64,000 nt of DNA from an uncultured Francisellaceae bacterium. GTDB lineage: Bacteria; Pseudomonadota; Gammaproteobacteria; UBA6186; Azoamicaceae. Where the stretch lies: the NCBI GenBank assembly GCA_903907935.1, contig CAIVQA010000053.1:176-64175 (forward strand). Direction: 5' to 3'. Shown piece after piece: positions 3,001 through 6,000 of this stretch. Position numbers: made by a program. The first letter of the stretch is position 1, and each line of letters opens with the position of its first letter.

Positions 3001-6000
3001 CGAATTTGATTAATAAAGATTACTAAAGTGTTGGTACGTTTAATATTTGCTGTCAATTTACGTAATGCTTGAGACATCAACCTTGCTTGTAACCCCATAT
3101 GTTGTTCACCCATTTCGCCTTCAATTTCTGCCCTTGGGGTTAAAGCTGCTACAGAATCAATTACTATTACATCAACTGAACCAGAACGCACTAACATATC
3201 GGTAATTTCTAAAGCTTGTTCACCAGTATCTGGCTGAGACACTAATAATTCATCAACCTTTACTGATAATTTTTCTGCATAAGATGGATCCAACGCATGT
3301 TCTGCATCTACAAATGCCGCAACTCCACCCTGACGTTGACATTCAGCAATCACTTGCAACGACAAAGTAGTTTTACCAGATGATTCTGGGCCAAAAATTT
3401 CTACTATTCGGCCTTTAGGTAAACCACCTATACCAAGTGCTAGATCTAAACCTAACGAACCAGTAGAAATAGCCTCTATATCACCTACTGCTGGGCTATT
3501 CCCCATTAACATCACTGAACCTTTACCAAATTGTTTTTCAATTTGAGTTAATGCAGCATTAAGCGCTTTTTGTTTATTTTGATCCATAAGGTTCTCCCCC
3601 CAATTAATTAAGCTTTACTTGAATCAACATATAAATACCAATGAGTAGAAGAATGCAAGATATTTTTTACTAGGGATTTATTATATAAATTTGCTAAATA
3701 TTTGGGGTAAGATAAAGTTTGTATAATTGATTATAAAGTAGCTAGAAATGATATAGATAAGTTAATTAATTATTTATTTACGCAAAGTTAACATACTTAA
3801 TAATTTTTCTAATCTAACAAAAATTTCTCTATACTCTTCAGGACCAATACCCTGAATAACACTATTTTGAGCTTCTTGCCATAGAGGTACACAGGTTTGC
3901 ACCAATGCTTTGCCTTTTTCAGTCAAAGTATAGGCTTTAGATCTTTTGTCCATGGTCTGTACGGTCATAATTAATTCCATATTAGCTAATGGTTTTAAAT
4001 TACGTGTCAGGGTAGTTCTATCCATAACCAAGCTTTCAGCTATATCTGTCAAAGTTTTAGCAGAAGTCGAAGCTAGGGCTATTAATAATGTAAATTGCGT
4101 AGATCTTATCCCAGATGATTCTAAATAACGATCATAGTACTGAGTAACTGCCCTCATAACCTTACGCATATTAAAACAACAACACTGTTTATTGACATAT
4201 TCATATGAATGGTTGTGTGTTGCGTGAAGTATATTATTTTGCTCCATGTAAGTTTACCCCCTAACAAAGAGTGTAGTATTTAGCATAGATGAATTGCAAG
4301 TTATAACTAAAAATTTTTATAAAAATTTTTCTAAAGTTTTCTCAAATCATGCTACAATTAGCTCCCATGAGTTTATTGGCTGATTTTTTTCCAATATTTG
4401 TATTTTTTTGCGCCTTTAAGTTAAAGGGGTTAATGATAGCTACTATAGCTGCTATAGTAGTATCGTTTATTCAATTAGTTATAGTAAAAATTCGCACCAA
4501 AAAATTTCAGCACCTCCAAGTAATCTCCTTTTTAAGCCTATTAATTTTGGGTGGTTTCGCCTTAATTTGTAACAAGGAAATTTTTATAAAATGGAAACCA
4601 ACAGCAATCTACTGGCTATTAGCAATAATTTTTTTAGGCTCCCACCTCTTCAGTAAGCAACCATTGCTAGAAAAACTTAGCAACAAAACCCTACAGTTAC
4701 CTAAAAATGTTTGGACTAAGCTGAATATAATGTGGATCATATTTTTTATATTTATGGGGATTTTAAATTTATATGTAGTATATTACTTCGATACTAATAC
4801 TTGGGTAAATTTTAAATTATTTGGAACCCTAGGCCTAACAACAATATTCATTGTATTCCAAGCAGTTTTTTTATCTAAATATCTACGCACTGAGAAAGAA
4901 TAATTTATAATTAAATAATTATGATGTTTTTTACTGTACTAATATTAGCCATTTTAAGTGGCGCAGAAATTGATTTATTTACACCCAGTTTCCCTGAATT
5001 ACAAACCATTTTCAACCTATCACCATTCATGGTGGAGTGGCGCAGAAATTGATTTATTTACACCCAGTTTCCCTGAATTACAAACCATTTTCAACCTATC
5101 ACCATTCATGGTGGAGTTATTATTAAGCATAAACCTTATTGCCCATTGTATAAGTTCATTAATAGTTGGTAATTTAGGTGATCGCTATGGTAGAAAAAAT
5201 ATTATTATCCTTGGTTTAATAATATTTATTATTGGAAGCTTACTTTGTGTGTTCGCACTTAACTATTGGTATTTATTATTAGGTAGAGTGCTACAAGGAA
5301 TAGGTATAGCAGGACCTTCTGTTCTTGATTTTTTAGTTATTACTGATAACTATCCGCCAGAACAACAACAACACAAAATCGGATTACTAAATGGTTTTGC
5401 TACCTTATCAGTGGCTCTAGCGCCTGTTATTGGAAGCTACATTAGCCTTTTTTTTAAATGGCAGGGTAATTTTGTTACACTGTTGCTATTAGGTATTTTT
5501 TGTTTAATTTTAGCAATAAAATTTTTACCTCAAAGTAAAATCAACCATGCTGTTAAATTTTCTATAAAAGAATATTGGCCAATTTTTAATTCTAAAATAG
5601 TAATTTATTCTATTATAACTATTTGCTTTATAACTCAAAGTTACTGGATTTTCGTTGGTATGGCGCCAATTTTATATATGGAAGCATTTGATGTAAGTTT
5701 AAAACACTTTGGATTTTATCAAGGTTCTTTATGCCTATTATTTGCTATTGTAAGTCTATCTAGTGGTTATCTAATAAAAAAATTTGGTACAAAAAATTGT
5801 CTTATATTTGGGCTTGTATTATTAATAATGTTTACTATAGCTACTTTTATATTAATGGTTTTAAAGATAAACAATCCAATTATAATTACTTTAGTTTTAC
5901 AGTTAGAAGCTATTGGAGTGGTATTTCCAATCAATATCTTATGGCCGATTTCTATAAATGCAGTGCCAGGCGGTAAAGCTAGAGTAACTGCAGTTTTAAC

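What the first reader, a model, noticed from the sequence alone, without database searches (positions are those of the whole stretch)
4957..5117. Perfect 79-bp tandem duplication frameshifts the 5' end of an MFS efflux transporter gene
4957..5035 is repeated exactly at 5036..5114, with AGT microhomology at the junctions. Without the extra copy, ATG 4921 would give an intact Bcr/CflA-like protein (MMFFTVLILAILSGAEIDLFTPSFPELQ...LLLSINLIAHC...GDRYGRKN). With it, that frame stops at 5050..5052. The body of the protein is only reachable from a GTG at 4958, which reads copy 1 out of frame and loses the start of TM1. Zero divergence between the copies means the event is very recent. It could be a reversible on/off (phase-variation-like) switch by recombination between copies, or an assembly artefact.
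Basis: seen in the sequence. Interest (0 to 1): 0.6.

Follow-up and report, generated by a model that had tools for sequence, protein, structure and literature searches.

The report
Frameshifting 79-bp duplication in efflux gene
An uncultured freshwater Francisellaceae bacterium carries an exact 79-base tandem duplication that breaks the start of a drug-efflux-type membrane transporter gene; it is a real but ordinary recent gene-inactivating mutation, with no sign of a programmed switch.

Summary
Bases 4957-5035 are repeated exactly at 5036-5114, with AGT microhomology. It is the only exact tandem duplication with a period above 48 bp in the 2.04-Mb genome.

The duplication shifts the frame of a Bcr/CflA-like DHA1 MFS transporter gene. 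ATG 4921 now gives 43 aa. The 414-aa GTG-4958 ORF replaces the first half of TM1 with a non-hydrophobic peptide.

All 3 congeneric orthologues and 12 close metagenomic homologues have one copy and start M[MI]FFT (two MFF). dN/dS of about 0.1 shows the gene was constrained until recently.

Four assemblies of this species carry the duplication, one of them on a slightly different haplotype. One low-coverage contig that is otherwise 100% identical has a single copy.

Best reading: a real, recent slippage duplication giving a null or crippled allele, reversible in principle by precise deletion.

Caveats:
79 is also a default MEGAHIT k.
- The single-copy contig could be an assembly collapse.

This is a new instance of a known kind of mutation and of low interest. 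The scan's earlier notes did not report it on other DNA.

The parts
4957..5035 (+). Copy 1 of the 79-bp unit. It is read out of frame (+1) by the GTG-4958 ORF and in the native frame by the ATG-4921 ORF.
5036..5114 (+). Copy 2 of the 79-bp unit, identical to copy 1. The GTG-4958 ORF reads it in the native frame, encoding SGAEIDLFTPSFPELQTIFNLSPFMV.
5115..5117 (+). AGT, the 3-bp microhomology shared with the first three bases of each copy (identity run of 82 at offset 79).
4921..5052 (+). Truncated native reading frame: ancestral start ATG 4921, 43 codons, ending at TGA 5050-5052, which the frameshift brings into frame.
   Evidence: orthologue starts
4958..6202 (+). The 414-aa ORF from GTG 4958 that gene callers annotate. 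It has a 26-aa out-of-frame neo-N-terminus followed by residues 13-400 of the MFS transporter. No Shine-Dalgarno-like sequence precedes it.
4349..4903 (+). yciB/ispA (intracellular septation protein A). It lies 17 nt upstream on the same strand and is probably co-transcribed with the MFS gene.
   Evidence: PF04279, 4.9e-55; the same order is found in G004
3774..4247 (-). Divergent MarR-family regulator, conserved next to yciB-MFS in congener G004. It is a candidate regulator of the pump (inference).

Best explanation
This is a real, evolutionarily recent 79-bp tandem duplication in the first 200 bp of a Bcr/CflA-like (DHA1) MFS efflux transporter gene. The genome is an uncultured freshwater Francisellaceae bacterium.

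How it arose (inferred): a replication template switch or slippage. The nascent strand ending in ...GGTGGAGT (5117) re-paired its 3' AGT with the AGT at 4957-4959 and recopied 4960-5117.

Consequence (shown from the sequence): 79 is not a multiple of 3, so translation from the ancestral ATG 4921 terminates after 43 codons. The transporter body can only be made from weak internal starts (GTG 4958, TTG 4970, ATG 5108), which lack the first half or all of TM1. The allele is therefore most likely null or severely crippled (inferred).

Reversion (inferred): like any short tandem duplication, it can revert by precise RecA-independent deletion of one copy. It may therefore segregate with the intact allele in nature. 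It is a reversible mutation, not a dedicated switch.
For: The duplication is exact and unique in the genome.

The single-copy form is ancestral:
- Congeners G004, G002 and G003 (78, 70 and 69% identity) and 12 metagenomic homologues all have one copy. Thirteen of these 15 start M[MI]FFT[VI]LIL; P0008 and P0011 are called one residue shorter (MFFT/MFFS).

The gene was under purifying selection until recently:
- dN/dS for window versus G004 is 0.141/1.344. All pairs fall between 0.10 and 0.19. There is no other lesion in 1.2 kb.

TM1 is lost:
- The Kyte-Doolittle 19-residue maximum is 1.99 at residue 2 of the intact protein. In the GTG product it reaches at most 0.58 before TM2.
- In the AlphaFold2 model (mean pLDDT 81.3, pTM 0.80), residues 1-18 and 20-23 have pLDDT below 50. 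The first four 10-residue blocks score 32, 40, 51 and 65, against 83-95 afterwards.

The DNA is real:
- The 414-aa product is on record from ERZ1426847 (44.6-kb contig) and from the window's own 79,125-bp contig.
- A variant with four amino-acid differences is on record from ERZ1426818 (2,282-bp contig).
- In the 1,663-bp contig of ERZ1426605 an ORF runs from TTG 4970 to the contig end. That frame is open only if both copies are present.

A single-copy allele probably exists:
- ERZ27313053 contig k141_471654 is 100% identical over all 1,512 bp but has one copy.

Precise deletion between short tandem repeats inside a gene is a documented, RecA-independent event (PMC7145654).
Against: Copy number and within-sample mixtures are therefore unverified.

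The period of 79 equals one of MEGAHIT's default k values (my own knowledge of the default list). The probable source study used MEGAHIT with default settings (PMC8121793).

The four assemblies that carry the duplication share an accession series. They may share reads and a pipeline, so they are not fully independent.

The single-copy contig is short and of low coverage. It could be a collapse produced by tip clipping in the assembler.

Loss of function is inferred, not measured.
Confidence: 0.7

Rival explanations
1. Assembly or post-assembly artefact. The organism has one copy, and the second copy was created by joining two contigs that overlapped by k = 79 without trimming, or by some other software error.
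For: 79 is a default MEGAHIT k value (own knowledge). The probable source project used MEGAHIT with default settings on 2x150 reads. All records carrying the duplication have accessions in one series, ERZ1426xxx. A different MEGAHIT assembly gives a single copy. Reads are unavailable.
Against: A de Bruijn graph at final k = 141 cannot contain the junction 141-mers unless reads do (reasoning, not tested). The duplication recurs on contigs of four different lengths (79,125, 44,602, 2,282 and 1,663 bp), one with a different downstream haplotype. The 2.04-Mb assembly has no other period-79 duplication and no other exact tandem duplication with a period above 48. A plain k-overlap join would need the next 3 bases (AGT) to match by chance, roughly 1 in 50-64.
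Confidence: 0.12
2. The duplication is one state of a selected, reversible on/off (contingency-type) switch of the efflux pump. It would resemble the duplication-based phase variation of pneumococcal cap3A or Ralstonia phcA.
For: Both states appear to exist on otherwise identical DNA. The duplicated state occurs on two haplotypes. Tandem-duplication null alleles revert by precise excision in known systems: Waite 2001 as cited in PMC11163986, Poussier 2003 as cited in 10.1101/2023.04.27.538605, and the tetA repeat assays in PMC7145654.
Against: Only one duplication of one length is seen. None of the 15 close homologues shows any duplication here. Only 3 bp of microhomology is present, and the hairpin at the unit end is weak and not significant (-3.6 kcal/mol, z about -1), so nothing predicts a high forward rate. 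The single-copy contig may be an assembly collapse. No clonal population data exist.
Confidence: 0.1
3. The 414-aa GTG-initiated protein is a functional transporter with a remodelled N-terminus, so the duplication is neutral or adaptive rather than inactivating.
For: The ORF is open for 414 aa, and gene callers annotate it in every assembly that has the duplication. It keeps the conserved EIDLFTPSFPEL part of TM1 and everything downstream. AlphaFold2 still draws a helix over residues 16-33.
Against: The neo-peptide MAQKLIYLHPVSLNYKPFSTYHHSWW is not hydrophobic: the KD19 value is at most 0.58, against 1.99 for the native TM1. It is modelled with pLDDT below 50. GTG 4958 has no Shine-Dalgarno-like sequence and lies inside the reading frame translated from the native ATG 4921. 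The native N-terminus M[MI]FFT[VI]LIL is conserved in 13 of the 15 closest homologues, and the other two differ only in being called one residue shorter.
Confidence: 0.08

Closest known systems
Bcr/CflA subfamily of DHA1 MFS efflux transporters (TIGR00710). Closest solved structure: E. coli EmrD (PDB 2GFP).
   Same: Pfam MFS_1 matches at 2.5e-45 over nearly the full length. The best NCBIfam model is TIGR00710, covering model positions 7-383 of 385. EmrD is the best PDB hit at 5.4e-15. Motif A, G-x-L-G-D-R-Y-G-R-K, lies after TM2. The model has a 12-helix-type architecture. Sources name relatives 'DHA1 family bicyclomycin/chloramphenicol resistance-like MFS transporter'.
   Different: The score of 174.5 bits is below the curated TIGR00710 cutoff of 200.9, so it is Bcr/CflA-like rather than a certified member. 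The substrate is unknown. This copy is frameshifted.
Duplication-mediated capsule phase variation in Streptococcus pneumoniae cap3A (Waite et al. 2001, as cited in PMC11163986).
   Same: A tandem duplication inside an ORF switches the gene off, and precise loss of the duplication switches it back on.
   Different: In pneumococcus, many independent duplications arise at high frequency, and reversion was observed in clonal cultures. Here there is one duplication in metagenome assemblies and no switching data.
Ralstonia solanacearum phcA tandem-duplication variants that revert in planta (Poussier et al. 2003, as cited in bioRxiv 10.1101/2023.04.27.538605).
   Same: A short tandem duplication acts as a reversible null allele of a single gene.
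   Different: That case is a regulator gene, with reversion demonstrated under host selection. Here no phenotype or selection is known.
Laboratory tetA partial-duplication alleles (pSTL plasmids, 101-bp tandem repeats) used to measure RecA-independent deletion in E. coli (PMC7145654).
   Same: The architecture is the same: part of an MFS efflux gene is duplicated in tandem to create a null allele, and precise deletion of one repeat restores the gene.
   Different: Those are engineered, plasmid-borne 101-bp repeats. This one is natural, chromosomal and 79 bp long.

Membership tests
Major Facilitator Superfamily (Pfam PF07690 MFS_1) | The profile match exceeds the Pfam gathering score over most of the protein. 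| tested here: met
   155.4 bits against a cutoff of 33.4, E 2.5e-45, profile positions 12-346 of 347.
Major Facilitator Superfamily (Pfam PF07690 MFS_1) | Twelve transmembrane helices arranged as two six-helix bundles. | tested here: inconclusive
   The AlphaFold2 model of the 414-aa product (pTM 0.80) shows the expected run of long helices. The first helix (TM1) is built partly from the frameshifted neo-peptide, at pLDDT 32-51. The intact single-copy protein has a hydrophobic TM1 (KD19 1.99), and the duplicated allele does not.
DHA1 drug:H+ antiporters | Motif A (G-x-x-x-D-R-x-G-R-[KR]) in the loop between TM2 and TM3. | tested here: met
   GNLGDRYGRKN is read directly in the translation. 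G, D, R, G and R are invariant or nearly invariant in the 21-sequence alignment.
Bcr/CflA subfamily (NCBIfam TIGR00710) | The score reaches the curated whole-protein cutoff. | tested here: not met
   It is the best-scoring model, but at 174.5 bits against a cutoff of 200.9.
Duplication-based phase variation (cap3A / phcA type) | A tandem duplication inside the ORF abolishes the reading frame. | tested here: met
   The 79-bp exact duplication makes the native frame stop at 5050-5052.
Duplication-based phase variation (cap3A / phcA type) | The precisely reverted single-copy form coexists with the duplicated form in the same lineage. | tested here: inconclusive
   One 1,512-bp contig is 100% identical apart from having a single copy. 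It comes from another assembly and has low coverage, so it could be a collapse. No read-level data were available.
Duplication-based phase variation (cap3A / phcA type) | Recurrent, independent duplications at the locus, i.e. a high forward rate. | tested here: not met
   Every assembly that has a duplication has the same one. None of the 3 congeneric orthologues or 12 close homologues has any duplication.
Duplication-based phase variation (cap3A / phcA type) | Measured high-frequency switching of a phenotype in clonal culture. | not testable with these tools
   The organism is uncultured and known only from metagenome assemblies.

The most novel reading that the evidence does not exclude
The duplicated and single-copy alleles coexist in natural populations of this uncultured Francisellaceae species as a reversible on/off polymorphism of an efflux pump, maintained by fluctuating selection. 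That would be bet-hedging through an unstable tandem duplication, not a decaying gene.
Probability: 0.1. Interest if true: 0.45.

Novelty: new member of a known kind. Interest (0 to 1): 0.2.

Why it matters
Mainly for annotation. The 414-aa 'MFS transporter' called from GTG 4958 in this MAG and its sister assemblies is a frameshifted allele, not a genuine protein with a novel N-terminus. It should be flagged as a disrupted gene or pseudogene.

It is also a clean natural example of microhomology-mediated tandem duplication as a first step of gene loss. The genome shows other signs of a host-associated lifestyle: low GC, many small repeats, and a gene that at least one congener lacks.

If read-level data showed both alleles coexisting, it would be a modest environmental example of reversible duplication alleles. 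Such alleles are so far documented mostly in cultured pathogens.

Tried and rejected

2. JGI metagenome scan with a 37-nt pattern covering the left flank and the start of the unit. It returned 0 hits.

3. Exact look-up of the product expected from a contig starting inside copy 2 (window 5063-6199). Nothing is on record. A look-up of the downstream Rpn/YhgA-like protein gave no extra contigs.

4. The end of contig L013 at window 5011, exactly 55 nt into the repeat, looked like a k = 55 graph branch caused by the duplication. I rejected this. The record looks like a SPIRE assembly, and SPIRE used MEGAHIT with default settings, which have no k = 55 (PMC10767986). The contig end is uninformative.

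5. A hairpin (CACCATTCATGGTG) at the 3' end of the unit as a driver of slippage. It gives only -3.6 kcal/mol, with z between -1.0 and -1.4, so it is not significant.

6. An internal promoter or terminator created by the duplication. Promoter-like sites were no more frequent than in shuffles (5 found against 6.4 expected). The 'terminator-like' hit at 5099-5114 is the same weak hairpin.

7. Systematic assembler artefact. A whole-genome scan for exact tandem duplications of period 15-400 found no other period-79 case.

Full report
OBSERVATION

Window 4957-5035 equals 5036-5114 base for base (79/79). Identity at offset 79 continues for three more bases, so AGT begins each copy and also follows copy 2. 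Tandem Repeats Finder reports period 79, 2.0 copies, 100% matches and score 322.

No 12-20-mer of the unit occurs elsewhere in the window. I scanned the whole 2.04-Mb, 115-contig assembly for exact tandem duplications of period 15-400. This is the only one with a period above 48 and the only one of period 79. Apart from a heptanucleotide tract, the others are 15-48 bp and multiples of three. Chance is excluded.

THE GENE

- The ORF from ATG 4921 stops at TGA 5050-5052 after 43 codons. A 414-aa ORF runs from GTG 4958 to 6202.
- Removing one copy in silico gives an open 400-aa frame from ATG 4921.
- The protein is an MFS_1 transporter (Pfam 155 bits, E 2.5e-45).
- Its best NCBIfam model is the Bcr/CflA efflux subfamily TIGR00710, but at 174.5 bits against a cutoff of 200.9. 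I therefore call it Bcr/CflA-like DHA1 and not a certified member.
- The best solved relative is E. coli EmrD, 2GFP, at E 5.4e-15.
- Motif A (GDRYGRK) is present.
- Upstream lie yciB/ispA, 17 nt away on the same strand, and a divergent MarR-family gene. Congener G004 has the same three genes in the same order.

THE ORGANISM

Congeneric genomes found with the protein carry these record titles:
- 'uncultured Francisellaceae bacterium ... AlinenLipids_bin-5883'
- 'Francisellaceae bacterium UBA6186'
- 'Gammaproteobacteria bacterium SPRUCE 276'

Identical DNA turns up in assemblies named BUCK21-1_SAMEA68727xx. This points to the stratified-lake metagenomes of Buck et al. 2021 (PMC8121793). The link is an inference from names, not a checked accession.

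WHICH STATE IS ANCESTRAL

The three congeneric orthologues (78, 70 and 69% identity, 397-399 aa) have one copy and start MMFFT[VI]LIL...GAE[IL]DLFTPSFPELQ. So do 12 further homologues at 67-78% identity from metagenomes, apart from P0008 and P0011, which are called one residue shorter (MFFT/MFFS). The DNA alignment shows a clean 79-column gap in all three orthologues.

Pairwise dN/dS is 0.10-0.19, including the window lineage (0.141/1.344 against G004). There is no second lesion in the gene. The gene was therefore functional until recently, and the duplication is specific to this species.

One congener, G001 (98% complete), has no detectable orthologue and has a different gene after yciB. The pump is therefore dispensable in the genus.

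CONSEQUENCE FOR THE PROTEIN

The native N-terminus is TM1 itself. The Kyte-Doolittle 19-residue maximum is 1.99 at residue 2.

The GTG-4958 product replaces MMFFTVLILAIL with MAQKLIYLHPVSLNYKPFSTYHHSWW. No window before TM2 then exceeds 0.58.

I built an AlphaFold2 model of the 414-aa product from a 21-sequence alignment. It is a confident MFS fold (mean pLDDT 81.3, pTM 0.80). The exception is residues 1-18 and 20-23, which have pLDDT below 50. The first four 10-residue blocks score 32, 40, 51 and 65.

GTG 4958 has no Shine-Dalgarno-like sequence and sits inside the frame translated from ATG 4921. Later in-frame starts (TTG 4970, ATG 5108, GTG 5111) lose still more of TM1.

I infer a null or severely crippled allele. 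This is inference and has not been measured.

REAL DNA OR ARTEFACT

Indirect evidence favours real DNA:

- The exact 414-aa product is recorded on the window's own 79,125-bp contig and on a 44,602-bp contig of ERZ1426847.
- A 414-aa variant with four nearby single-base differences is recorded on a 2,282-bp contig of ERZ1426818. One of its variant motifs, EYLT, also occurs in homologue P0007, so it may be a true haplotype.
- In the 1,663-bp contig of ERZ1426605, a gene is called from the position of TTG 4970 to the contig end, 104 codons. That frame is open only if both copies are present. With one copy it stops at once, at AGT TAT TAT TAA (sequence).
- A de Bruijn assembler with a final k of 141 cannot output the copy1|copy2 junction unless reads contain it. 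This is reasoning from how such assemblers work.

Against this:
- 79 is one of MEGAHIT's default k values (my own knowledge), and the probable source study used MEGAHIT with default settings.
- The four records share one accession series. They may share reads and a pipeline.
- A simple k-overlap join would also need the 3-bp AGT extension to match by chance, about 1 in 50-64.

I put the artefact at about 12%.

IS THERE A SINGLE-COPY ALLELE

Contig k141_471654 of ERZ27313053 (1,512 bp) is 100% identical to the window on both sides and has exactly one copy. This is the only evidence for the intact allele in this species.

No full-length 400-aa protein is in the 90% cluster, whose three members are the two 414-aa proteins and a 55-aa sequence, P0122, that looks unrelated.

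The contig is short, which implies low coverage. If fewer than two reads spanned the junction, tip clipping could collapse the loop to one copy. I therefore treat the polymorphism as probable, not shown.

Contig L013 ends inside copy 1 and is uninformative.

MECHANISM AND COMPARISON

The structure is an exact tandem copy with 3-bp junction microhomology. This is the signature of template switching or slippage during replication.

The reverse event is precise deletion of one of two short tandem repeats, and it is RecA-independent. It is assayed routinely with an almost identical artificial construct: part of tetA duplicated in tandem as a null allele (PMC7145654).

Natural precedents for such duplications acting as reversible off-states are:
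- pneumococcal cap3A (Waite 2001, cited in PMC11163986)
- Ralstonia phcA (Poussier 2003, cited in 10.1101/2023.04.27.538605)

This case shares the architecture with those systems. It lacks their defining evidence, which is recurrent independent duplications and measured switching. The weak hairpin at the unit's end is not significant, and the promoter scan is at background.

VERDICT

The 'switch' idea is possible but unsupported, and the 'artefact' idea is unlikely but not excluded.

This is an ordinary recent disruptive mutation, a new instance of a known kind. Its main practical consequence is that the annotated 414-aa protein is a frameshift product. I score interest at 0.2.

Noticed in passing
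own genome G000, contig C12, about 4962-5082 (outside the window): A perfect heptanucleotide tract, (AATCAGC) x about 17, lies in an apparently non-coding stretch. It is a candidate simple-sequence contingency locus.
   Followed up: partly
window 6262-7239 (-): A 325-aa Rpn/YhgA-like 'Transposase_31' gene (PF04754, 1.1e-60) lies immediately downstream of the MFS gene and converges on it. It is absent at this position in congeners G004 and G003.
   Followed up: partly
window 5562-5583; protein P0001 from ERZ1426818: A second 414-aa variant differs by four single-base changes within 22 nt (S>Y, W>L, P>T, I>F). Part of the variant motif (EYLT) matches homologue P0007. It may be a small recombination tract or haplotype rather than sequencing error.
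   Followed up: partly
L030 (G003:C54:27083-27607): The yciB orthologue of congener G003 contains an in-frame TAA. This may be another disrupted gene in the genus.
   Followed up: no
L031 (G001:C130): Congener G001 (98% complete) has no orthologue of this MFS gene. An ABC-type exporter gene follows its yciB instead.
   Followed up: partly
one search hit list: Outside the genus, many of the named homologues (about 50-55% identity) are from Rickettsia and Candidatus Tisiphia, which are Alphaproteobacteria. Same-family gammaproteobacterial genomes are at 42-47%. This hints at horizontal exchange of the pump among intracellular bacteria.
   Followed up: no
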